A stretch of 64,000 nt of DNA from SAR86 cluster bacterium AG-422-O05 (GTDB lineage Bacteria; Pseudomonadota; Gammaproteobacteria; Magnimaribacterales; D2472): contig QCMW01000002.1 in NCBI GenBank assembly GCA_003213495.1, positions 4,303-68,302 on the forward strand, written 5' to 3'. The notes under the pieces are model-generated. The model ran no database searches. It was not told where the DNA came from and saw nothing but the letters and a program-made list of their open reading frames with translations. Shown here in pieces: positions 52,280 to 61,224 of this stretch. Within the stretch, counting starts at the first letter, position 1, and each line of letters begins with the position of its first letter. The position numbers and the translations under genes are program-made.

Positions 52280-55200
52280 GTGAAACAATTTTTATTGTCA
52301 TTGGTGTTCTTATTGCCAGTATCTTCTTATGTTTTTGGACAAGAAACTGAAGAGGAGAACGAAAACGAAGTTGAGGAAATTGTCGTTACTGGTATAAAGT
52401 CAAGTTTAGTCGATGCTATTGAAATAAAAAGAAATAACATCGGTGTCACCGAAATTATTACAGCAGAAGACGTTGGAAAATTTCCTGATGGAAATATTGC
52501 TGAAGCCTTAGCAAGAGTTTCTGGTATTGCAATTGACAGAAGCAATATCGAAGGAAAGGAAGTTACTGTAAGGGGTATGGGTGCTCAATATAACATGGTA
52601 ACTTTAAATGGAAGAGTTATGCCGGTTGCTCCTGGTAATTATGATGGTGGTAGAGCCTATGACTTTGGAGCAATATCTTCACATGGAATAGCTAGAGTTG
52701 AGGTATATAAATCACAAAATCCTTCTTTACCCTCAGGTGGTTTAGGGGCCACGATTAACATGGTTACTGCAAAACCTTTGGAAGTAGATAATGGAGGAGC
52801 ATTATCATTTTTATTGATGTCAGATTCCACAAATGTAAACGGAGATGATATGACACCAGAACTTGAGTTTATTCATAGTTATAAATCTAGCTATCTTGGA
52901 CTGGATTGGGGTGTCTCATTTTCTGGATCTTATCATGACAGAAGTAACAGAGAAGAAACCACAAATGAAATGAAGTGGCTTCCTAGTAATCTTCAAGCAC
53001 CTACTTTTGGTCCAAACGTCACCGATAATAGTGGTGGCATTGTTAATTATAGGCCTCAAGGATTTTTTGTTGGTTACAAAGACAATCAACGCGAAAGAAA
53101 AAATCTTGCAGCCTCATTTCAAGTATCAAATCAAACTACGACAGTTACAATTGATGGAGTTTATTCAGGTGTTGATTTTCAGTCATCTGGTAATAGGGCA
53201 GGTTCAGGACTTGATATTGCCTACAGCGTTCCTTATGGGGCAGGCATTGGTATGGATAATGTAAATATTGATTCAAATGGTGTTGTAAACCAATTTGATA
53301 TTGTTGGATCTGGAACAAACTTGACTCAATTTGTTGATTGGAGCTCTGAGAAAACAGCAAACAGATCAATTGGTCTTAATGTTGAATGGACTGGTTCAGA
53401 TAGCTTAACTCTTGAATTTGACTATCATAATTCAACAGCTGTTAATTCAGGTGGTGCTAATGATATGGGATTTGCAAATGGCTCATGGTCTGGATATGGA
53501 GATGGGCAAAGTTTTGATAATGGAAACCCCTACAACCAATGGGCTGAACTTACTAATTTAAGATTTATTGCCAATAATACTATTCCTGATTGGATTCCAA
53601 CAACAAGTGTTGGTTTTCAATGGTATCCAAGAACTGAAAGAGATTTAGAAGGGGTTGATATGTCATCGACAACTGCCCATTTAAGATATAACAATAAAGA
53701 AAGTAATCTTTCTCAATTTCAAATTAAAGGTGATTGGCAAAACATTAATGAATTTTTATTGGAGAAGCTGGTATCAGTTCAGTTTGGACTTTCATCAATT
53801 GAACAAAAGTTTGATAGAACTCTGAGGTCAAATACATTATTTGCACCCATTCAAGACGGTGCTGCGCCTGGCTCTTTGATATGGGGTCCCAATTTTTGGA
53901 ATGATGATGCGTTTACACTTACAAGTTTAGCTGGTTTACTGGGCGATTCATCCGACGGTTTAAGCGTACCTTATTATATGCATATCAATTTTGATGATGC
54001 TGTAGCAGGCTACTCTCAAGGATATTGGATAAATTCTCCTACTTGGAATTGTTCTGAAGGTTTCCCAAATTGTTATGGTTCTCCAGAGGATATTGCTACA
54101 GTAAAGGAATCGACAGATTCAGCATATATACAATTAAACTTTGAAGGTGAATACAACATGATGCCTTGGAAGCTAGTTACTTCTTTAAGATATGAAGAAT
54201 TGATGCTTAAAGCTCCTCAAAACTATAATGTTCCAACAGGCACTTTCATAGGTACTTACGGTTGGGGTGATGGCCCGTATTTTATTTTTGGACCTACTCA
54301 AAATGGAGAAATGCCATTAAGAAATATTTCAGGATCATATAGTTCTAAATCTGAAATGGTTTTACCAAGTTTTGCTTTTAGTATTGCTCCGTCCGAAAAT
54401 ACAGTCGTAAGATTAAGTGCAGGTAAAACTATTGCTAGATCAGGCTTAGAAAAATTTTCACCTAATGTTGTATTTCCTCAGTTCCTTAGCATGAATAATC
54501 CAGTTCACGTAAATACATCAGGTAATCCTGATTTAGAACCTCTAGTTAGTAATAATATTGATTTAGCTTTTGAATATTATTATGCAGAGGGTAGCTATGC
54601 CGCTGTTAATATTTTCCAGAAAGATTTAAAAGACTTTCCAGGCAACTCTACAACAAGAGTTACTTATGATGGTTTATATGATGTTAGATATGGAGTCAAT
54701 GGAGCTGGGCCAGCTGATACCTCAACAGTTGTGTTAAATTGGCCAAATTATCAAACTATAGATCAAGTAACTTTTGGAAGTATGGATTGGTGGCAAACAT
54801 TAATGAAAATTTACCATGCAACCGTTCCAGGTACATCATGTACTTTAGACCAAAGAACTTGGAGTGACTATTTTTATTATAATAGTACAGAATGTGTTCA
54901 AAGCAGCTCTTCAATTAATCCATTAATGCAATTCGATATTAACAGGCCTGAAAATATTTATTCGGGTAAGCTTGATGGAGTTGAGATAGCGCTTCAACAT
55001 TTCTTTGTAAACACCAATTTTGGATTTATTTTTAACTACACTTTTATTAATGGAGATACAGAGGCATCACCTACTGCTGTAAGAAATGAATCCTTTGAAT
55101 TGGCTGGATTTGGAGACTCTGGAAACCTATCTGTTTTCTATGAAAATGAAAAATTTTCTGCCAGACTTTCCAATAATTATAGAGCTGAAACATATGTTGG

Positions 55201-55411
55201 ATTTGATGAGTATAACCCTTTATGGGTTGAGGCAAGATCACAAGTTGACTTCAGTGCATCATATAGAGTTAATGATGGCGTTAGTCTTTTTGTGGAAGGA
55301 TTAAACATAACTGATTCCGAAGTGCGTTTATACGCAAGATATGACAATATGTTATTCTTAGCGCAAAATCATGGACCTGTTTACAAGGCTGGATTCAGAG
55401 TTAAGTTTTAA
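52280..55411 (+). CDS. TonB-dependent outer-membrane receptor
   Basis: GTG start with an AGGGGG SD. Signal peptide, acidic linker and EEIVVTG are present. Plug motifs are NIAEALARVSGI and TLNGR. It has a long beta-barrel ending ...YKAGFRVKF. Confidence 0.93.
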   Translation: MKQFLLSLVFLLPVSSYVFGQETEEENENEVEEIVVTGIKSSLVDAIEIKRNNIGVTEIITAEDVGKFPDGNIAEALARVSGIAIDRSNIEGKEVTVRGMGAQYNMVTLNGRVMPVAPGNYDGGRAYDFGAISSHGIARVEVYKSQNPSLPSGGLGATINMVTAKPLEVDNGGALSFLLMSDSTNVNGDDMTPELEFIHSYKSSYLGLDWGVSFSGSYHDRSNREETTNEMKWLPSNLQAPTFGPNVTDNSGGIVNYRPQGFFVGYKDNQRERKNLAASFQVSNQTTTVTIDGVYSGVDFQSSGNRAGSGLDIAYSVPYGAGIGMDNVNIDSNGVVNQFDIVGSGTNLTQFVDWSSEKTANRSIGLNVEWTGSDSLTLEFDYHNSTAVNSGGANDMGFANGSWSGYGDGQSFDNGNPYNQWAELTNLRFIANNTIPDWIPTTSVGFQWYPRTERDLEGVDMSSTTAHLRYNNKESNLSQFQIKGDWQNINEFLLEKLVSVQFGLSSIEQKFDRTLRSNTLFAPIQDGAAPGSLIWGPNFWNDDAFTLTSLAGLLGDSSDGLSVPYYMHINFDDAVAGYSQGYWINSPTWNCSEGFPNCYGSPEDIATVKESTDSAYIQLNFEGEYNMMPWKLVTSLRYEELMLKAPQNYNVPTGTFIGTYGWGDGPYFIFGPTQNGEMPLRNISGSYSSKSEMVLPSFAFSIAPSENTVVRLSAGKTIARSGLEKFSPNVVFPQFLSMNNPVHVNTSGNPDLEPLVSNNIDLAFEYYYAEGSYAAVNIFQKDLKDFPGNSTTRVTYDGLYDVRYGVNGAGPADTSTVVLNWPNYQTIDQVTFGSMDWWQTLMKIYHATVPGTSCTLDQRTWSDYFYYNSTECVQSSSSINPLMQFDINRPENIYSGKLDGVEIALQHFFVNTNFGFIFNYTFINGDTEASPTAVRNESFELAGFGDSGNLSVFYENEKFSARLSNNYRAETYVGFDEYNPLWVEARSQVDFSASYRVNDGVSLFVEGLNITDSEVRLYARYDNMLFLAQNHGPVYKAGFRVKF

Positions 55412-55430
55412 AAATATATATCAAAAGTAA

Positions 55431-55456
55431 AAGAGGGCTTTTTAGCCCTCTTTTTT
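55431..55456 (+). terminator. rho-independent terminator after the TonB-dependent receptor
   Basis: AAGAGGGC-TTTTTA-GCCCTCTT is followed by a T-run. Confidence 0.85.
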
Positions 55457-55468
55457 ATTTGTATAAGA

Positions 55469-55474
55469 TATAAT
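55469..55474 (+). promoter_or_regulatory. TATAAT hexamer 6 nt upstream of ATG 55481 (possible leaderless start)
   Basis: Read directly. There is no SD between the hexamer and the ATG. Confidence 0.3.
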
Positions 55475-55480
55475 TTGTAT

Positions 55481-57532
55481 ATGAATATTCTTAGGATATT
55501 TATTGTTATATTTTTTATTGTTTCCTGTGGTGGAGGCGGAGGAGGCGGCAGTGCACCCCCAGCTCCATTTGCAATAACTCTTGCATCAAGCACTTCTATA
55601 TCAGTTGATGAAGATACTACATACACAGGTAATGTAGTTGCAACTGCTAATGAGCCTGTAACACTTGAATATGCACTTGTTTCTTCAACAACAAATGGAA
55701 TCCTTACTTTTTTGACAACTGGAGCTATCACTTATACTCCCAATGAAAATTTTAATGGGCAAGATGAATTTTCTTATTCTGTTACTGCAGTCGAAAAAAG
55801 CATTACAAGAAATAGCACAGTTACAATTACAGTTAATTCTGTAAACGATTTGCCACAGATATCATTAGATTCAAAATTAAATTTAGACAAAGATCATCTT
55901 ATTTTTGAAAATAATCCTACATTTTCTGTTTCGTTTTCAGATGTTGATAATATAGATACAGATTTTAGTTTTAGTGCATCTATAAACTCGGAAAATGTTG
56001 GAGCAACTTTTACTTCAACTGGTGATGGTCAAGGAGATATAGTTCTAGATTTATCAACTCTATCTAAAGCAGGTTTATTCAATGCGGAAATTATAATATC
56101 TGATGGTATGGATACCGCTAGTGATTCATTTAATACATGGTTCATATCTAATAAACAAACCGTTACTGTTGCTCAAGATGACGACAAAAGTGATGGTTTT
56201 GATTCTGGCACCACAACAAATAAAGATTATTATGTGTATTATCTTGTTGGAGGTGGCTCAACCTTTGGAAGAACTGATTACTTGTTTGTTGCTGATTCAT
56301 TAAAAGCAGACCCTAATGATGGAACGTTATCTGATACTGATAGTTTTAGAGAAGCTTTACTGAAATCCATTAATGCTCTTAATGATTCAGATGCTTCTGA
56401 ATTTTTTACAGGCTATTTTGATATTGTTGTTGCAGAGCCAGTAAGTCCTGATGGAACTTCTTTAGCATCTATTGAAACAGGTTGTTATGACTGGGATGAG
56501 GATGTTTATTGCATTGGCTCTGGCGATATAAATGATTCTGTTTTTGATGATCTGTTTGCTGAACATGATTTAGTCTCAGTCCTAACAATGATAGATGGCA
56601 GAGGAGTGAATTTGGGTAACACTAACATTCAAGAAATCAAACCTAGAACAGAATATACTTTAATGCATGAGTTGGGTCATGCACATGGTGAAATGGGAGA
56701 CGAATATATAACTACTGACGATAGAGATGTCAGTCAATGGGCAGATAGAAATGTTAATACGACAACACAGGCAGATCCATCATTAGTTAAATGGAATCAT
56801 CACATATCAGACTTTATGAATGTAGCGGGAAAAGACTTTAAGGTTTGTTATAACTATGCAGATGGATCTATTTATGACGAGGGTGAGGATGCAACTACAT
56901 GCGACTGTTTGTTCAATTTATATGATGCAAATGGAAATAGAACTGGTAGAAATCCAGAATGCGATGTTGTTGGCCTTTTTGAAGGAAATTATTATGGGGA
57001 GTTTGATAATTATAGGCCAAAATACTGGACTATTATGGAGGGCGGTATTTTAAAATATGGTGAGGTTAATACTGAAGGTTTCGCAATAGGATCAATTCAT
57101 AACCAGGGTTTTTTATATGGTGATGAGGTAGGTTTTGTCACCGATGAGTCGGGGGCTAGAACTGGTTTTGAAATAGATATTGATGTTGTATATGATAATT
57201 CTAAGTTAAGACTTAAATGGTATATAAATGGTGTTGAGGATCCATCAAAAGAAAATCAAACAAGAATAGTATTTGATAGACCGACCAATAATACTGTGCA
57301 AATTTATACATGGAAAGTTGATGATCTTACTGGAACTGTTACAGCACCCGACGACGTAACTGATGTAAATGATTTTTATGAAGGATTATTTAATTCTGAT
57401 TTTTACTGGTGTGACAGAACAAGTGGCTCATGTCAGTGGGGCTATAACCCAACGGATCAATCCCAATATCATTATGGTTATGTAACTGGTCCAATGGGAG
57501 GGACCTGGGGTATTAATTGGTCAAGGTGGTAA
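55481..57532 (+). CDS. lipoprotein: Gly7 tether + Ig/cadherin-like (tandem-95-type) modules + M64-like zinc metalloprotease domain
   Basis: The start is trimmed from TTG 55475 to ATG 55481. Lipobox FIVSC is followed by GGGGGGG. The Ig-like module is ...VDEDTTYTGNV...ITYTPNENFNGQDEFSYSV...VNSVNDLPQ. The zincin motif is HELGHAHGEMGDEY (56666-56707). Confidence 0.8.
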   Translation: MNILRIFIVIFFIVSCGGGGGGGSAPPAPFAITLASSTSISVDEDTTYTGNVVATANEPVTLEYALVSSTTNGILTFLTTGAITYTPNENFNGQDEFSYSVTAVEKSITRNSTVTITVNSVNDLPQISLDSKLNLDKDHLIFENNPTFSVSFSDVDNIDTDFSFSASINSENVGATFTSTGDGQGDIVLDLSTLSKAGLFNAEIIISDGMDTASDSFNTWFISNKQTVTVAQDDDKSDGFDSGTTTNKDYYVYYLVGGGSTFGRTDYLFVADSLKADPNDGTLSDTDSFREALLKSINALNDSDASEFFTGYFDIVVAEPVSPDGTSLASIETGCYDWDEDVYCIGSGDINDSVFDDLFAEHDLVSVLTMIDGRGVNLGNTNIQEIKPRTEYTLMHELGHAHGEMGDEYITTDDRDVSQWADRNVNTTTQADPSLVKWNHHISDFMNVAGKDFKVCYNYADGSIYDEGEDATTCDCLFNLYDANGNRTGRNPECDVVGLFEGNYYGEFDNYRPKYWTIMEGGILKYGEVNTEGFAIGSIHNQGFLYGDEVGFVTDESGARTGFEIDIDVVYDNSKLRLKWYINGVEDPSKENQTRIVFDRPTNNTVQIYTWKVDDLTGTVTAPDDVTDVNDFYEGLFNSDFYWCDRTSGSCQWGYNPTDQSQYHYGYVTGPMGGTWGINWSRW

Positions 57533-57540
57533 AAAGACGT

Positions 57541-58008
57541 ATGAGATATTTATTTATTTTAGCTTTTGTATTTTCCTTTACAGTTATGGCTGAAAAAGAT
57601 TTAAAAGAAATAGACCTAATTAAGCTACACGTTTCACCAAATCAAGATGCAAAGATATTTACTTTTCATGGTACTCCAGATTTATTTACATTGAAAAAAA
57701 TCGAAGTTCAAAAACCTAAAGAGAGAATTCTTAAAAAACTTAAATTTGTAAGCGATGATGATAAGTATGCAGTAAAGCTATTTGATAATTCAGGAAGGCA
57801 CTTAATAACTTTAGGTATTGGTAATCCATTTTATGCATCGTATGAGCATATTGGATATGAAGACAGAGCATACATGGGTGGACCTGTATCCGCAAATAAT
57901 TTAAGCATAGCAATTCCTATTGAGTTAGATCCATCATATCTCATAATTTCAAGGCGAGATGTCACTGGAAAATTTATAGATTTTCAAGAGATACTTTTGC
58001 CACAATGA
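57541..58008 (+). CDS. secreted protein of unknown function linked to the M64-like lipoprotein
   Basis: The start is trimmed to ATG 57541, 9 nt after the upstream stop. Signal peptide is MRYLFILAFVFSFTVMA. It is 155 aa with a beta-rich pattern. Confidence 0.6.
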   Translation: MRYLFILAFVFSFTVMAEKDLKEIDLIKLHVSPNQDAKIFTFHGTPDLFTLKKIEVQKPKERILKKLKFVSDDDKYAVKLFDNSGRHLITLGIGNPFYASYEHIGYEDRAYMGGPVSANNLSIAIPIELDPSYLIISRRDVTGKFIDFQEILLPQ

Positions 58009-58061: not shown

Positions 58062-58137
58062 GCGGTACTAGCTCAGTTGGTAGAGCGTCTGCTTGCCAAG
58101 CAGAAGGCCGCCGGTTCGAGACCGGCGTACCGCACCA
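58062..58137 (+). tRNA. tRNA-Gly (anticodon GCC)
   Basis: 76 nt. Acceptor stem is GCGGTAC/GTACCGC. Anticodon stem is TCTGC/GCAGA with loop TTGCCAA. T arm is GCCGG-TTCGAGA-CCGGC. CCA is encoded. Confidence 0.95.
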
Positions 58138-58222: not shown

Positions 58223-58930
58223 ATGAAAAAATTTTTTTATAGCTTATTCGCTTTTGTTTTTCTAACATCACAATCATTAAATGCAGCAGGCTATTTGGCG
58301 ACATATTCAATGAAGGTTTCAAATCCAGCTGCTTATGTTGAAGCGCTTGATGAGTTAATGAATACTGATTGGGGTAAGTCATTTGCTGGAGATGTTTCAC
58401 TCCATCAATATGCATTCAATGGTTATGATGATGCAACCCATGTTGTTGTTCTAAATTATGAAAATCCAGAAAGCTTAGGTACCGGAACAGAATCTTTTAC
58501 GGATCCTGTATTTTTATCATTCTTTGCTGAAACTGCTTCTATCGCTGAGCCAGTAGAACAGTCTTTAAACATGAAATTAATTAGCGTATACAATGAAAAC
58601 GCTGATGAAGATCAAGTTTATACAATCTACAGAATGCAAGTTAAAGATGCTTCTGCGTATGCTAAAGAATATACCAAACTTACAAACGCTCAAGTTGAAT
58701 CAGGAAATATCCAAGGTAGCTATGGTCTAAGACAATTGGTTGCTGGTGATACTAGATACTATACACATTATGCTTATACAAGTGCTCCAAGTGTTGCAGA
58801 AGCTATGAAATCAGCTGAAACTTTGTACGGAAGCGATTCATTTGCAAAGTTTGCAGATAAGGTCAGTGAAAACAGAAGAGTTATGAATATTTCTATATTA
58901 ACTAATATTGTTAACTATCCTGCAAATTGA
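58223..58930 (+). CDS. secreted protein with two tandem alpha+beta (dimeric alpha/beta-barrel/NIPSNAP-like) modules
   Basis: Signal peptide is ...LTSQSLNA. The internal repeat is YLATYSMKVSNPAAYVEALDEL / VYTIYRMQVKDASAYAKEYTKL and THVVVLNYENPES / YYTHYAYTSAPSV. Confidence 0.7.
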   Translation: MKKFFYSLFAFVFLTSQSLNAAGYLATYSMKVSNPAAYVEALDELMNTDWGKSFAGDVSLHQYAFNGYDDATHVVVLNYENPESLGTGTESFTDPVFLSFFAETASIAEPVEQSLNMKLISVYNENADEDQVYTIYRMQVKDASAYAKEYTKLTNAQVESGNIQGSYGLRQLVAGDTRYYTHYAYTSAPSVAEAMKSAETLYGSDSFAKFADKVSENRRVMNISILTNIVNYPAN

Positions 58931-59000: not shown

Positions 59001-59948
59001 ATGTATATTTTTAAGTTTTTACTAGTATTAATTCTGCTTTATTCGTGTGGAGGTGGATCTTCAAGTACAGATTTTGAAAATAACCCTCCAACCACCCAAA
59101 CACTAAATTCAACTGAAACATGTATAAGTACTCAAGTGCCAAATCTTAAAAGATGCGATTTAGTGCATGATAATATTGATAGATTTTACTTTTTGTATGA
59201 GCCGTCTAATCTCGATACAAATTCAAGTATTGCTGTTTTATTTGCACTTCATGGATACGGATCTTCTGCGATGACTCACTTTAATTATACAAATTATGAG
59301 CCCCTTGCTAATGCGAATAATTTTATTGTTGTATATCCCCAAGGTACAACTAGTAATGGCTTAAATACTCATTGGAATAATGGAGGTTGGACCTCTAAAA
59401 GCACTGCTAAAGATATTGAATTTATAGATACTGTTATTGAATATATTAAATATAAAATTTCTATTGACGTAAAAAGAATATATTCTTCTGGAATGTCTAA
59501 TGGTGGCTATATGAGTTATCACTTAGCTTGCAATCTAGACAACACATTTGCTGCTGTGGTTTCTGTTACTGGATCAATGACTACTGATACTTTTGATAAT
59601 TGTGCACCGTCACATCCAACTGCTGCAATGCAAATTCATGGGGTACAAGATTTAACAGTTCCATATCTAGGAAGCGGTTGGTCAAAAAGTATTGAAGATG
59701 TAATTGATTATTGGGTCAGTTACAATTCTTGTGATTTTGAACCCGAAAGGCTAATTAAATACTCTAATCAAACAGATTTAATAAATTTCGATACTTATGG
59801 CGGATGTTTAAATAATGTTAATGTTAAATTAATTCTACATTCTGAAATGGGCCATACCTGGCCTTTCATTCAAAACTACAATATAGATGCTAGTCAAGAA
59901 ATATGGGATTTTGTTTCAAAGTATGATTTGGATGGCTTAAGAAATTAG
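59001..59948 (+). CDS. lipoprotein esterase, PHB-depolymerase/feruloyl-esterase-like alpha/beta hydrolase
   Basis: Lipobox LLYSC is followed by GGGSSS. FALHGYGSS, the nucleophile elbow SGMSNGG, and the distal IHGVQD and MGHTWP are present. Confidence 0.8.
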   Translation: MYIFKFLLVLILLYSCGGGSSSTDFENNPPTTQTLNSTETCISTQVPNLKRCDLVHDNIDRFYFLYEPSNLDTNSSIAVLFALHGYGSSAMTHFNYTNYEPLANANNFIVVYPQGTTSNGLNTHWNNGGWTSKSTAKDIEFIDTVIEYIKYKISIDVKRIYSSGMSNGGYMSYHLACNLDNTFAAVVSVTGSMTTDTFDNCAPSHPTAAMQIHGVQDLTVPYLGSGWSKSIEDVIDYWVSYNSCDFEPERLIKYSNQTDLINFDTYGGCLNNVNVKLILHSEMGHTWPFIQNYNIDASQEIWDFVSKYDLDGLRN

Positions 59949-60033: not shown

Positions 60034-60462
60034 ATGAGATTATTATTAATTTCAATGTTGATATTTTCTGTATCAGCCTTTACTCAAGAAGAGTCATCAA
60101 GAGAACCTGCACCTGGCGTAACAGAGCTTACTGTTATAAAAGTTAAAGCCAACTATCTTGGAGATTATATGGATGGAATTGAAAAAACATGGGTTGCATC
60201 TAATCAAATTGCTAAAGATATGGGCAAAATTGTTGATTATGGCGTTTATGTTGGAAACAATAACTATGTATATTTGACAGTTCAACACGAAAGTTATGCT
60301 TCTATGGATCCATCGTATTGGTCTGAAGAAGAAACAGAAGAATTTCAAACTAAATTTCGAAAAATTATTTCACAAGATGATCAAACATCAACCGCGCAAT
60401 CATATGAAGACATTCGTGAAATTGTTAGAGTTGAAATGATCAATCAAATTATTTTTAAATAG
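60034..60462 (+). CDS. secreted single-module alpha+beta protein (same family as neighbours, putative)
   Basis: 142 aa with a signal peptide. The beta1-alpha1 pattern is TELTVIKVKANYLGDYMDGIEKTW. A strong SD is present. Confidence 0.6.
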   Translation: MRLLLISMLIFSVSAFTQEESSREPAPGVTELTVIKVKANYLGDYMDGIEKTWVASNQIAKDMGKIVDYGVYVGNNNYVYLTVQHESYASMDPSYWSEEETEEFQTKFRKIISQDDQTSTAQSYEDIREIVRVEMINQIIFK

Positions 60463-60471
60463 GAGGAAAAT

Positions 60472-61224
60472 ATGAAACTTTTATTAAGTTTAAGTTTGCT
60501 ATTAAGCTTTAGTGTTTTTGCAGATGATCATGATTCACAAGAGTCACAATGGAATGTTGCTGAATATTATGTAAGTGTTTTCAAGGATGGCAAAGACATG
60601 GATGACATGATGAAATGGGCAGAAAAATGGAATAGTTGGGCCAATGAGACAGACGATCTTAAAGACTATCGTTCAGCAATGCTTGTGCCTTATTATCACA
60701 GTGGAGAACAACCTCATGACTTTGTATGGGTTGGAATAAGTCCTACTCCAGAAGCTCATTTCAAAGGGAATGATCATTGGTTTAGCAATGGCACAAAACT
60801 CTTAGCAGAATTAAATAAAATTTTGGAAACAGGTAATCAAACTACTTATACATGGCAAAGAGTTGTTTCAGACACACCAAGTGGACAAGCTGGTTATGCA
60901 GTATATACAGATTGTAAGTTGGGAGATGGAGTTACTGCAGATGAATTTTATACTGCATATGTTGCATATGCCAAAGCAGCAAAAGAAAAAGGAGATGTTG
61001 CTGGAAGAAAAATGATTTTTCCACAATCTGGAGTTCCTACAACATGGGATTATGATTTTGTTCAGTTAGTTTCAACAGAAACCATTACTGATTATGGAAA
61101 AAATTGGACTAATTTTTGGAGTAGTGCAACTCCTGAAAGCATGCCCGAATTAAAAGCATTAAATGATTTAGGTGGTTCATGTGAAAATGAAAGAACATAT
61201 GGAATCGTTCCAGTTCGTAATTAG
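60472..61224 (+). CDS. secreted protein with two tandem alpha+beta modules, paralogue of 45343-46239
   Basis: Signal peptide is ...SVFA. VAEYYVSVFKDGKDMDDMMKWAEKW / GYAVYTDCKLGDGVTADEFYTAYVAY, and DFVQLVSTETITDYGKNW...GGSCENERTYG parallels FLWANFSNSKDSMDKASEMF...FATCADTPDVYHG. Confidence 0.7.
   Translation: MKLLLSLSLLLSFSVFADDHDSQESQWNVAEYYVSVFKDGKDMDDMMKWAEKWNSWANETDDLKDYRSAMLVPYYHSGEQPHDFVWVGISPTPEAHFKGNDHWFSNGTKLLAELNKILETGNQTTYTWQRVVSDTPSGQAGYAVYTDCKLGDGVTADEFYTAYVAYAKAAKEKGDVAGRKMIFPQSGVPTTWDYDFVQLVSTETITDYGKNWTNFWSSATPESMPELKALNDLGGSCENERTYGIVPVRN

What the first reader, a model, noticed from the sequence alone, without database searches (positions are those of the whole stretch)
55481..58008. 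Surface-tethered Ig-like + M64-type metalloprotease lipoprotein with a tightly linked 155-aa secreted partner
Seen: after the lipobox Cys and seven Gly come one clear and one degenerate Ig/cadherin-like module of about 95 aa (VDEDTTYTGNVVATANEPVTLEYAL...ITYTPNENFNGQDEFSYSVTA...VTITVNSVNDLPQ). These are followed by a domain of about 430 aa containing HELGHAHGEMGDEY. The next ORF (signal peptide MRYLFILAFVFSFTVMA, beta-rich) begins 9 nt after the stop with no terminator between them. Established: M64 (IgA-protease-type) peptidases use HExxH plus a downstream Glu in ...DEY. Tandem-95/cadherin-like modules are typical stalks of cell-surface proteins. Inference: this is a stalked extracellular protease with a dedicated partner (inhibitor, chaperone or substrate-binding subunit). 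I recognise no family for the partner.
Basis: partly seen in the sequence, partly recalled or inferred. Interest (0 to 1): 0.55.

Follow-up and report, generated by a model that had tools for sequence, protein, structure and literature searches.

The report
M64 protease with split-off partner domain
A marine SAR86 bacterium encodes a lipid-anchored M64-family zinc protease, and the small secreted protein made from the very next gene is the same beta-sandwich domain that related bacteria carry fused to the end of the protease, so the two genes very probably make one enzyme; this is a tidy refinement of a known protease family rather than a new kind of system.

Summary
Window 55481-57532 (+) encodes a 683-aa lipoprotein: lipobox IVSC, seven Gly, two Ig-like modules, an M64 metallopeptidase region and a C-terminal beta domain. 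Pfam Peptidase_M64 scores 31.6 bits against a cut-off of 26. The zinc motif is HELGHAHGEMGDEY. Window 57541-58008 (+) encodes a 155-aa signal-peptide protein with no Pfam, NCBIfam or PDB relative.

The organism is SAR86. The partner lies directly downstream of the protease in 20 of 20 SAR86 species loci found with the protease. It does so again in 77 of 77 usable metagenome loci found with distant partner relatives. The start lies from 7 nt of overlap to 9 nt after the stop.

In sister lineages the partner is the covalent C-terminal domain of the same protease (P0198, P0262-P0264, P0266, P0210, P0225), with a linker where the signal peptide would be. One fusion (L114) sits in the same syntenic block. 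One contig (L073) carries two tandem protease-plus-partner pairs.

Best reading: a two-chain M64 enzyme whose accessory beta-sandwich domain is supplied in trans. The partner's exact role (buttress or gate, or latency plug or chaperone) is unresolved, because the AF2 model of a natural fusion was too poor. Surface exposure is untested. The third zinc ligand is the Asp of DEY, not the Glu.

The parts
55429..55454 (.). Terminator-like hairpin (11 bp stem, T-run) that separates the upstream TonB-dependent receptor gene from the protease gene. It is the likely upstream boundary of the transcription unit.
   Evidence: sequence
55481..57532 (+). Gene for the 683-aa M64-family zinc metallopeptidase lipoprotein
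55481..55528 (+). Lipoprotein signal peptide with lipobox I-V-S-C (Cys16). Ser15 and Cys16 are invariant in 18 homologues.
55529..55570 (+). Gly7 plus a Ser/Ala/Pro flexible tether after the lipidated Cys
55583..55831 (+). Ig-like module 1 (Pfam Big_9 / tandem-95 type), residues 35-117
   Evidence: (match to PDB 6xi1 repeats, E 3.8e-11, using profile A3, which includes this protein). The equivalent region of homologue P0198 is confidently beta.
55832..56155 (+). Ig-like module 2, degenerate (Cadherin_4 below cut-off), residues about 118-225. Boundaries are approximate.
   Evidence: AF2 of P0198 shows a second confident beta domain.
56156..57115 (+). M64 catalytic region, residues about 226-545. 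The Pfam Peptidase_M64 match itself covers residues 359-521 (56555-57043).
56666..56707 (+). Zinc site HELGHAHGEMGDEY. H396, H400 and D407 are the predicted zinc ligands and E397 the general base. E408 and Y409 correspond to the E and Y that follow the Asp in solved M64 enzymes.
   Evidence: Invariant. Residue roles by analogy with PMC12402451.
57116..57529 (+). Post-catalytic beta domain, residues about 546-683, ending in the conserved GTWGINWSRW
   Evidence: Beta strands with pLDDT 75-86 in the equivalent part of P0198.
57541..58008 (+). Partner gene: a 155-aa secreted beta-sandwich protein, the detached equivalent of the C-terminal domain of fused relatives. An alternative GTG start at 57526 overlaps the protease stop.
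57541..57591 (+). Sec signal peptide of the partner (MRYLFILAFVFSFTVMA, cleavage after VMA). It is replaced by a Ser/Thr/Pro-rich linker in the fused proteins.
57814..57882 (+). Most conserved segment of the partner, GIGNPFYASYEHIGYEDRAYMGG. His103 and Glu107 are invariant across 27 split partner sequences and are also present in the fused proteins. The segment is predicted as a long loop between strands, low-confidence in part (residues 103-106 below pLDDT 50).
58062..58137 (+). tRNA-Gly(GCC). It follows the pair, or the fused gene, closely in 25 of 25 loci checked. It is a positional anchor and possibly part of the same transcript.

Best explanation
The two genes encode one two-chain enzyme.

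The first product is exported by Sec, lipidated on Cys16 and held on a membrane by a Gly7/Pro-rich tether and two Ig-like modules. It carries an M64 zinc-metallopeptidase domain (Zn ligands H396, H400, D407; general base E397) followed by a beta domain.

The second product is made from the same transcript. Its start codon lies 9 nt after the protease stop, or overlaps it. It is exported separately through its own signal peptide. It is the free-standing version of the beta-sandwich domain that sister lineages carry as the covalent C-terminal domain of the same protease.

After export it docks non-covalently on the catalytic and beta-domain body of the protease. There it acts as a non-catalytic accessory subunit that stabilises the catalytic domain and/or shapes access to the active site, as the cis beta-sandwich domains of characterised M64 enzymes do. 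Its invariant Gly-x-Gly-Asn/Asp-Pro-Phe ... His-x-x-x-Glu loop is the probable contact element.

Shown here: the gene structures, M64 membership by sequence, co-occurrence, fusion, duplication of the pair as a unit, and purifying selection. Inferred: co-transcription, physical docking, the buttress or gate role, and the cellular location.
For: 1. M64 membership. Pfam PF09471 scores above its cut-off. The motif HELGHAHGEMGDEY is invariant in 18-20 homologues. It aligns with HEFGHSFGGLADEY of PDB 3P1V, as does a second block, VGLFEGNYYG..YRP..M.

2. Linkage found from the protease. All 20 SAR86 species loci with downstream DNA carry the partner directly after the protease. The start lies from 7 nt of overlap to 9 nt after the stop.

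3. Linkage found from the partner. Of 80 metagenome loci found with distant partner relatives (about 24-42% identical to the window's partner), 77 of 77 with usable upstream DNA have the M64 gene directly upstream.

4. Fusions. An exhaustive profile search found the partner domain at the C-terminus of Big_9+M64 proteins: P0198 (818 aa), P0210 (946 aa) and P0225 (867 aa). A further search added P0262, P0263, P0264 and P0266. The protease C-terminus runs through a linker of roughly 20-40 residues into the domain, with no signal peptide. P0198 and P0262 recur in independent assemblies. The fused P0266 sits in the same block as the window: GMC oxidoreductase, rhodanese, patatin, TBDR, M64, esterase, p250.

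5. Duplication as a unit. L073 has two diverged tandem protease-plus-partner pairs, 47% and 37% identical respectively.

6. Other neighbours vary while the pair stays. The TBDR is replaced or absent, and p235 and p142 come and go.

7. Precedent. ThomasA constructs lacking the C-terminal beta domains did not express. The BF3526 catalytic domain without its beta-sandwich also failed to express, and that beta-sandwich restricts substrate access (PMC12402451).

8. Both genes are under purifying selection.
Against: - No interface was obtained. The AF2 model of the natural fusion P0198 had pLDDT 29-50 across the catalytic domain and pTM 0.41, so docking and the contact loop are inference only.
- The partner has no detectable sequence or fold similarity to the beta domains of solved M64 enzymes. 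The best Foldseek PDB hit had E 0.08, and BF3526 appeared only at E 0.25.
- Most split loci lie in one broadly conserved SAR86 block, where the esterase and p250 are also usually retained. Adjacency alone is therefore weaker than the counts suggest, and the case rests mainly on the fusions and the tandem duplication.
- Nothing distinguishes a stabilising or gating role from an inhibitory or chaperone role.
Confidence: 0.55

Rival explanations
1. The partner is a latency or quality-control element: a pro-domain-like inhibitor or steric chaperone. It binds the M64 active site, with the invariant His103/Glu107 loop reaching or ligating the catalytic zinc. This keeps the protease silent in the periplasm or helps it fold, and the partner is later released or degraded. 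In fused relatives the same domain would be a C-terminal pro-peptide removed by cleavage in the linker.
For: - The linkage evidence is the same as for the main explanation.
- The only family-wide invariant residues beyond the initiator Met are a His and a Glu four residues apart. They lie in a long, conserved loop that is partly low-confidence in the model.
- The fused forms have an exposed Ser/Thr/Pro-rich linker that could be a processing site.
- The partner evolves about 2-4 times faster than the protease, as pro-domains often do.
- From general knowledge: protease-inhibitor (serralysin-Inh) and lipase-foldase (LipA-Lif) pairs are likewise encoded by adjacent genes.
Against: - There is no similarity to any known inhibitor, pro-peptide or PPC-type domain in Pfam, NCBIfam or the PDB.
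- No pro-domain or inhibitor is reported in the M64 paper read here (PMC12402451). There the accessory beta domains are permanent parts of the enzyme.
- No structural evidence shows that the loop reaches the zinc (one search was unusable).
Confidence: 0.27
2. The partner has its own function unrelated to the protease. In this reading it sits next to the protease only because the whole SAR86 block is syntenic, and the fused forms are annotation or assembly artefacts.
For: Split loci share a broadly conserved block in which other genes (esterase, p250, FAD monooxygenase) are also usually retained. Some apparent 'fusions' of the domain in the database are clearly artefacts, such as the adapter-derived peptides MCIRDR and LSLIHI in P0221 and P0228.
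Against: - The fused ORFs are continuous, translate exactly and recur in independent assemblies.
- They occur in at least five clusters that are 34-68% identical to each other.
- They lack a signal peptide at the junction.
- The fused loci L027-L031 have unrelated protein-coding neighbours.
- The tandem duplication in L073 copied both genes together.
- The partner family was never seen away from an M64 gene when upstream DNA was available.
Confidence: 0.05
3. The domain is a cis-acting sorting or anchoring signal, like a secretion-system C-terminal domain or a cell-surface anchor, and not a functional part of the enzyme.
For: It is the extreme C-terminal domain in the fused proteins and a small, roughly seven-stranded beta-sandwich. 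From general knowledge, this superficially recalls C-terminal sorting domains.
Against: A cis-acting signal cannot work once it is on a separate polypeptide with its own signal peptide. Yet the split form is the commoner one in this data set and is under purifying selection. No Pfam match to known sorting domains was found.
Confidence: 0.03

Closest known systems
ThomasA, the IgA protease of Thomasclavelia (Clostridium) ramosa, founding member of peptidase family M64 (PDB 9QDH; PMC12402451, PMC12415215)
   Same: - The zinc site has the same spacing: H, E, H, then Asp seven residues after the second His, followed by Glu-Tyr.
- The catalytic domain is followed by beta-sandwich domains (beta1, beta2) that pack on it. 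Constructs lacking them did not express.
- It is a multidomain, cell-anchored enzyme.
   Different: - It is a Gram-positive enzyme with an SPXTG motif, a putative sortase site for cell-wall anchoring.
- All its domains are in one chain.
- Its substrate is human IgA.
- Sequence similarity to the window protein is only at family level. ThomasA did not appear in either the phmmer or the profile searches of the PDB.
- The partner domain shows no detectable similarity to beta1 or beta2.
BF3526 (B. fragilis) and BACOVA_00663 (B. ovatus), Bacteroides M64 proteins (PDB 4DF9, 9QDI, 3P1V)
   Same: - PDB 4DF9/9QDI is deposited under the names 'putative peptidase | Lipoprotein'.
- The architecture is a beta-sandwich plus an M64 domain.
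- The motif HEFGHSFGGLADEY and the block VGVYEGGGY..YRP..M align with the window protein.
- The beta-sandwich gates substrate access, and the catalytic domain alone does not express.
   Different: - Their beta-sandwich is N-terminal and covalent.
- The matches to the window family profile are weak (E 0.04-0.09).
- The Cys pattern of the second zinc site differs: C..C-x2-C there, against C-x17-C-x-C-x17-C here.
- They come from gut bacteria, and there is no separate partner gene.
Fused relatives from marine metagenomes (P0198, P0262, P0263, P0264, P0266, P0210, P0225). P0266 (L114) is a positional counterpart of the window's pair.
   Same: - Same lipobox, Ig-like modules, M64 domain and beta domain, 34-50% identical to the window protease.
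- Same partner domain with the His/Glu loop.
- P0266 lies in the same syntenic block.
- tRNA-Gly(GCC) lies close downstream of the fused genes checked (L027, L029).
   Different: The partner domain is covalently attached through a Ser/Thr/Pro-rich linker, with no signal peptide of its own. Some carry an extra N-terminal module. None has been characterised.
Secreted hydrolases with an adjacent small helper gene, such as serralysin with its periplasmic inhibitor Inh/AprI, or Pseudomonas lipase with its foldase Lif (recalled from general knowledge, not tested here)
   Same: An exported hydrolase gene is followed immediately by a gene for a small exported protein that binds it.
   Different: There is no sequence or fold similarity. 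To my knowledge those helpers are not found as covalent domains of their enzymes, whereas this partner is.

Membership tests
Peptidase family M64 (Pfam PF09471) | Match to the family HMM at or above the curated gathering score | tested here: met
   31.6 bits against a cut-off of 26, residues 359-521 on profile positions 108-284 of 302. PF09471 is also precomputed for essentially all homologues.
Peptidase family M64 (Pfam PF09471) | Catalytic motif HEXXHXXXGXXD, with two His and the Asp as zinc ligands and the Glu as general base (PMC12402451) | tested here: met
   H396-E397-L-G-H400-A-H-G-E-M-G-D407. The Asp lies 7 residues after the second His, as in BF3526 (H315/D322) and ThomasA (H543/D550). 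The Gly is shifted: it occupies the 3rd and 6th positions after the second His instead of the 4th. The motif is invariant.
Peptidase family M64 (Pfam PF09471) | Second, structural zinc site formed by the Glu that follows the ligand Asp plus three Cys. This is a feature of both solved M64 enzymes. | tested here: inconclusive
   E408 and Y409 are present and invariant. Four invariant Cys follow (C456, C474, C476, C494). Their spacing differs from BF3526 (E323, C398, C409, C412) and ThomasA (E551, C606, C616, C619), and no reliable model is available.
Peptidase family M64 (Pfam PF09471) | M64 catalytic fold | tested here: inconclusive
   AF2 of homologue P0198 gave pLDDT 29-50 across the catalytic domain. 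Only short profile matches to 3P1V and 4DF9 were found (E 0.04-0.09).
Peptidase family M64 (Pfam PF09471) | Zinc-dependent endopeptidase activity | not testable with these tools
   Needs expression and assay.
Bacterial lipoproteins (signal peptidase II substrates) | N-terminal signal peptide ending in a lipobox [LVI][ASTVI][GAS]C | tested here: met
   MNILRIFIVIFFIVSC, with I-V-S-C at residues 13-16. Ser15 and Cys16 are invariant in 18 homologues. The residue after Cys is Gly, not Asp. By the E. coli rule (general knowledge) that points to the outer membrane, but the leaflet and surface exposure are untested.
Big_9 / tandem-95 / cadherin-like Ig modules | Match to the domain HMMs | tested here: met
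   Big_9 scores 43.9 bits against a cut-off of 23.6. NCBIfam tand_rpt_95 scores 52.9 bits, below its whole-protein cut-off of 90, as expected for a single repeat. The second module is below cut-off (Cadherin_4, 22.3 against 25.1).
Any described protein family for the partner, including inhibitor, pro-peptide, PPC and sorting domains | Significant HMM or structure match | tested here: not met
   - Pfam: no hit reaches the gathering cut-off. One Y_phosphatase2 hit of 20.1 bits (cut-off 27) occurs in 1 of 27 members.
- NCBIfam: none.
- PDB profile: none, best E 0.19.
- Foldseek against the PDB: best E 0.08, generic Ig-like.
- hhalign against the protease itself: probability 0.3%.
Two-gene unit (operon, possibly translationally coupled) | Same strand, minimal or negative spacing, no intervening terminator, conserved across relatives | tested here: met
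   The spacing runs from 7 nt of overlap to 9 nt after the stop in all distinct junctions. No terminator-like site lies between the genes. Transcription itself was not tested.

The most novel reading that the evidence does not exclude
The partner would define a new family of trans-acting regulators of M64 metallopeptidases. Its invariant His-x-x-x-Glu loop would insert into the active-site cleft and ligate or shield the catalytic zinc. The SAR86 cell would thereby keep a potentially self-damaging protease latent in the periplasm, and activity would be released only after export or partner loss. The fused relatives would then be zymogens with a C-terminal pro-domain, a latency mechanism not described for M64.
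Probability: 0.2. Interest if true: 0.6.

Novelty: new variant of a known kind. Interest (0 to 1): 0.4.

Why it matters
SAR86 is one of the most abundant groups of heterotrophic bacteria in the surface ocean and has not been cultured axenically. Its exported hydrolases are therefore known only from sequence. This locus is conserved across the order and usually sits beside a TonB-dependent receptor, so it is a plausible part of how these cells attack dissolved or particulate protein.

For protease biology, the only characterised M64 enzymes come from gut bacteria, and they depend on flanking beta-sandwich domains. This lineage supplies such a domain either in cis or in trans. That offers a natural experiment on what these accessory domains do: the partner can be added or withheld without engineering truncations.

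The partner domain also defines a small, currently unnamed protein family with a clear signature, G-x-G-[ND]-P-F ... H-x-x-x-E. It could be annotated as 'M64 peptidase accessory domain' instead of 'hypothetical protein'.

Tried and rejected
1. AF2 of the natural fusion P0198, using a 29-row alignment of fused, protease-only and partner-only sequences, was meant to reveal the interface. The catalytic domain came out at pLDDT 29-50 and pTM was 0.41.

3. Pfam, NCBIfam and PDB profile searches for the partner and its family were all negative. The Y_phosphatase2 hit is below cut-off and occurs in 1 of 27 members, so I treat it as chance.

4. I tested whether the partner arose by duplication of an internal domain of the protease. 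hhalign gave a probability of 0.3%, so this is rejected.

5. Several apparent fusions of the partner domain to unrelated fragments are not trusted as real architectures. These are P0213 (GT17), P0236 (creatinase_N), P0259 (GST_N) and P0221. P0221 starts with MCIRDR and P0228 ends with LSLIHI, both translations of a sequencing adapter.

6. Three 'FUSED' flags in my script (L040, L089, L096) are artefacts. There is almost no upstream DNA in those loci, and the protease HMM included the fused domain columns.

7. I checked whether genes downstream of the fused loci L027-L031 are homologues of the window's p235 and esterase. They are not.

I repeated it with a tighter subgroup.

9. A literature search for SAR86 together with M64 returned no papers.

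10. The direction of the event is unresolved. An NJ tree gives one clean split between fused and split forms, and midpoint rooting puts the root among the fused forms, which favours fission. Without an outgroup this is not settled.
Full report
**What is in the sequence.** The window has about 32% G+C. Loci recovered with the protease all come from SAR86-cluster genomes, up to 97% identical.

ORF 55481-57532 (+) encodes 683 aa. It starts with MNILRIFIVIFFIVSC, seven Gly and SAPPAP. This is a lipoprotein signal peptide with the lipobox IVSC. Ser15 and Cys16 are invariant in 18 homologues.

Pfam places Big_9 on residues 35-117 (43.9 bits, cut-off 23.6). Cadherin_4/5 matches over 62-184 fall below cut-off. 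Peptidase_M64 matches residues 359-521 (31.6 bits, cut-off 26). NCBIfam sees a tandem-95 repeat at 41-128. HELGHAHGEMGDEY lies at 56666-56707.

The next ORF, 57541-58008 (+), encodes 155 aa with the signal peptide MRYLFILAFVFSFTVMA|E. It has no Pfam or NCBIfam family. A terminator-like hairpin at 55429-55454 lies between the upstream TonB-dependent receptor and the protease gene. No such site lies between protease and partner, or between partner and the tRNA-Gly(GCC) at 58062-58137.

**Is the protease an M64 enzyme?** The Pfam score passes the curated cut-off. The recent structural paper on the family (PMC12402451) gives these defining features:
- the motif HEXXHXXXGXXD;
- catalytic zinc bound by the two His and the Asp (BF3526 H311/H315/D322; ThomasA H539/H543/D550);
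- the Glu of HEXXH acting as general base;
- the Glu immediately after the Asp, together with three Cys, binding a second, structural zinc.

The window protein has H396, E397, H400 and D407 with the same His-to-Asp spacing, followed by E408 and Y409. All are invariant in close and distant homologues. A family profile aligns this stretch, and a second block (VGLFEGNYYG..YRP..M), to PDB 3P1V. The first block also aligns to 4DF9/9QDI. Both matches are weak (E 0.04-0.09).

Four invariant Cys follow the motif (456, 474, 476, 494), but their spacing differs from the solved enzymes. Conservation of the second zinc site is therefore open.

**Is the partner tied to the protease?** The test was run in both directions.

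Starting from the protease, a scan of GTDB species genomes returned 21 SAR86 loci. In all 20 with downstream DNA, a partner homologue lies directly after the protease. At the junction, the partner's start lies between 7 nt of overlap (ATG or GTG formed by the last Arg/Trp codons..A TGG TAA) and 9 nt after the stop. In the window both an overlapping GTG (57526) and the ATG (57541) are possible starts.

Starting from the partner, an exhaustive profile search of 1.84 billion representative proteins found only 85 proteins at E ≤ 0.001, so the family is small. Many distant members carry the odd N-terminal extension MG[YN]KLGKMV. This is exactly the +1-frame reading of the protease's conserved C-terminal WGINWE[RK]W-stop. 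These calls therefore betray an upstream M64 gene even without context.

A direct check confirmed this. A metagenome scan seeded with distant partners gave 80 loci. These partners are 37-48% identical to the seed (apart from the seed's own locus, L032) and roughly 24-42% identical to the window's partner. In 77 of 77 loci with usable upstream DNA the M64 gene is directly upstream. The other three had fewer than 100 nt upstream.

There is a caveat. All these loci belong to one broadly conserved SAR86 block: TBDR, M64, partner, tRNA-Gly, sometimes p235, esterase, p250, FAD monooxygenase. Adjacency alone could therefore be inherited synteny. Within the block the neighbours do vary. The TBDR is 96-100% identical in some loci, about 35-39% in most, and absent in L005 and L021. 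p235 and p142 come and go. The pair never separates.

**The decisive evidence: natural fusions and a duplicated pair.** The exhaustive search found the partner domain at the C-terminus of much longer proteins: P0198 (818 aa, domain at 701-817), P0210 (946 aa), P0225 (867 aa) and the fragment P0224. All have the Big_9 + Peptidase_M64 architecture. A further search added P0262, P0263, P0264 and P0266.

In the alignments the fused proteins run from the conserved protease C-terminus (..NWSKF/Y) through a Ser/Thr/Pro-rich linker of roughly 20-40 residues. They continue straight into the region that aligns with residues about 29-155 of the window's partner. No hydrophobic signal peptide is present. 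These are not read-through or frameshift artefacts. P0198 and P0262 translate exactly from several independent assemblies.

The fused genes of L027-L031 have unrelated protein-coding neighbours. They are still followed by the same tRNA-Gly(GCC). The fused P0266 (L114) lies in the same block as the window: GMC oxidoreductase, rhodanese, patatin, TBDR, fused M64, esterase, p250. The fused gene and the window's two genes therefore correspond in position.

Contig L073 carries two tandem copies of the unit: a 783-aa protease with a 162-aa partner, then a 684-aa protease with a 157-aa partner. The copies are 47% and 37% identical. The duplication copied the pair together, and each protease kept its own partner.

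Both genes are under purifying selection. dN/dS is 0.03-0.09 for the protease and 0.12-0.17 for the partner. The partner diverges faster: 39-91% identity across SAR86 species, against 65-97% for the protease.

**Direction of the event.** An NJ tree of the catalytic and beta regions gives one clean bipartition. All split forms are monophyletic. With midpoint rooting the fused forms form a basal grade. That favours a single gene fission, in which the detached domain gained its own signal peptide. Without an outgroup, a single fusion cannot be excluded.

**What the partner is and does.** AF2 predicts a seven-stranded beta protein (pLDDT 74) with a long loop in part of which confidence is low (residues 103-106 below pLDDT 50). 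That loop holds the family's most conserved segment, GIGNPFYASYEHIGYEDRAYMGG (57814-57882). Across 27 diverse members the only invariant residues after the initiator Met are His103 and Glu107. Tyr76, Gly94, Pro96, Phe97 and Pro126 are nearly invariant. The fused proteins also keep the His and the Glu.

No relative was found in the PDB by sequence or by fold (best E 0.08). The domain is not a duplicate of any part of the protease. My attempt to see the interface by folding the natural fusion failed, because the catalytic domain was modelled at pLDDT 29-50.

The mechanism therefore rests on analogy. In the two characterised M64 enzymes, beta-sandwich domains pack tightly on the catalytic domain. 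ThomasA constructs without them did not express. The BF3526 catalytic domain alone did not express either, and its beta-sandwich restricts which substrates reach the active site.

I conclude that the partner is most likely a non-catalytic accessory subunit, supplied in trans, that docks on the protease body and stabilises it and/or gates substrate access (confidence 0.55). The main rival is a latency plug or steric chaperone that uses the His/Glu loop (0.27).

A split form can only work if the complex is tight or the compartment is confined. A freely secreted partner would otherwise be lost to the sea. This is an inference. It argues either for assembly in the periplasm before any export, or for a periplasm-facing lipoprotein. 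A purely cis-acting sorting or anchoring role is excluded by the existence of the split form.

**What is not shown.** Surface exposure, the substrate, co-transcription, physical binding and any link to the neighbouring TonB-dependent receptor were not tested. The receptor gene is separated from the protease gene by a terminator-like hairpin and is replaceable.

**Verdict.** It can be sharpened: the '155-aa partner' is a detached domain of the enzyme. This is a new variant of a known kind, an M64 metallopeptidase with an uncharacterised accessory domain that occurs either fused or as a separate, tightly coupled gene. It is of moderate interest.

Noticed in passing
window 58062-58137; L001, L005-L025, L027, L029, L032, L034, L042, L073, L088, L091: A tRNA-Gly(GCC) gene lies on the same strand roughly 30-100 nt after the partner gene, or after the fused gene, in 25 of 25 loci checked. 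This includes fused loci whose protein-coding neighbours are unrelated. In L073 it follows only the second of two tandem pairs. In L114 two genes are inserted before it. No terminator-like site precedes it in the window, so it may be co-transcribed. It also marks the downstream edge beyond which gene content varies.
   Followed up: partly
window 52280-55411; compare L005, L021, L001, L006, L024: The TonB-dependent receptor upstream of the protease behaves like a replaceable cassette. It is 96-100% identical to the window's in a few SAR86 loci, only 35-39% identical in most, and absent in L005 and L021. The flanking patatin and M64 genes stay at 70-97% and 65-97% across these loci.
   Followed up: partly
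L073 1677-7112: Two diverged tandem copies of the protease-plus-partner unit lie on one marine metagenome contig, 47% and 37% identical. The first protease has an N-terminal extension of about 100 residues.
   Followed up: yes
window 58223-58930, 60034-60462, 60472-61224: Three signal-peptide proteins (235, 142 and 250 aa) have no Pfam or NCBIfam family. The 235-aa and 250-aa genes are widely conserved in the SAR86 block next to the esterase. The three are not detectably related to each other or to the partner.
   Followed up: partly
window 59001-59948: A second lipoprotein (LLYSCGGGSSS) is an alpha/beta-hydrolase. It scores just under the NCBIfam cut-off for extracellular short-chain-length PHA depolymerase type 1 (141 bits against 150). 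It is conserved downstream of the pair in most SAR86 loci.
   Followed up: no
window 57517-57543: The partner has three in-frame candidate starts: TTG 57517, GTG 57526 and ATG 57541. In most relatives an ATG or GTG formed by the protease's last codons (..A/G TGG TAA) is in frame with the partner. In four junctions (L001, L015, L016, L017) it is the only plausible start, since the later candidates fall inside the signal peptide. This suggests translational coupling.
   Followed up: partly
protein database entries P0178, P0183, P0184, P0187-P0190, P0194, P0195, P0197, P0202; P0221, P0228: Two annotation artefacts appear. First, many partner homologues are called with an N-terminal MG[YN]KLGKMV extension, which is the +1-frame translation of the upstream protease's WGINWE[RK]W-stop. 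Second, P0221 starts with MCIRDR and P0228 ends with LSLIHI, which are translations of a sequencing adapter, so their odd architectures are chimeras.
   Followed up: yes
window 55469-55474: A perfect TATAAT hexamer ends 6 nt before the protease ATG, just after the upstream terminator hairpin, with no obvious Shine-Dalgarno sequence. This suggests a very short leader or a leaderless transcript. The promoter scan did not list it because no -35 element matched.
   Followed up: no
P0266, P0210 (residues about 25-110); L091, L098, L073 first protease: Some relatives, both fused and split, carry an extra N-terminal module of about 90-100 residues between the lipobox and the first Ig-like module. The length of the stalk therefore varies within the family.
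   Followed up: no
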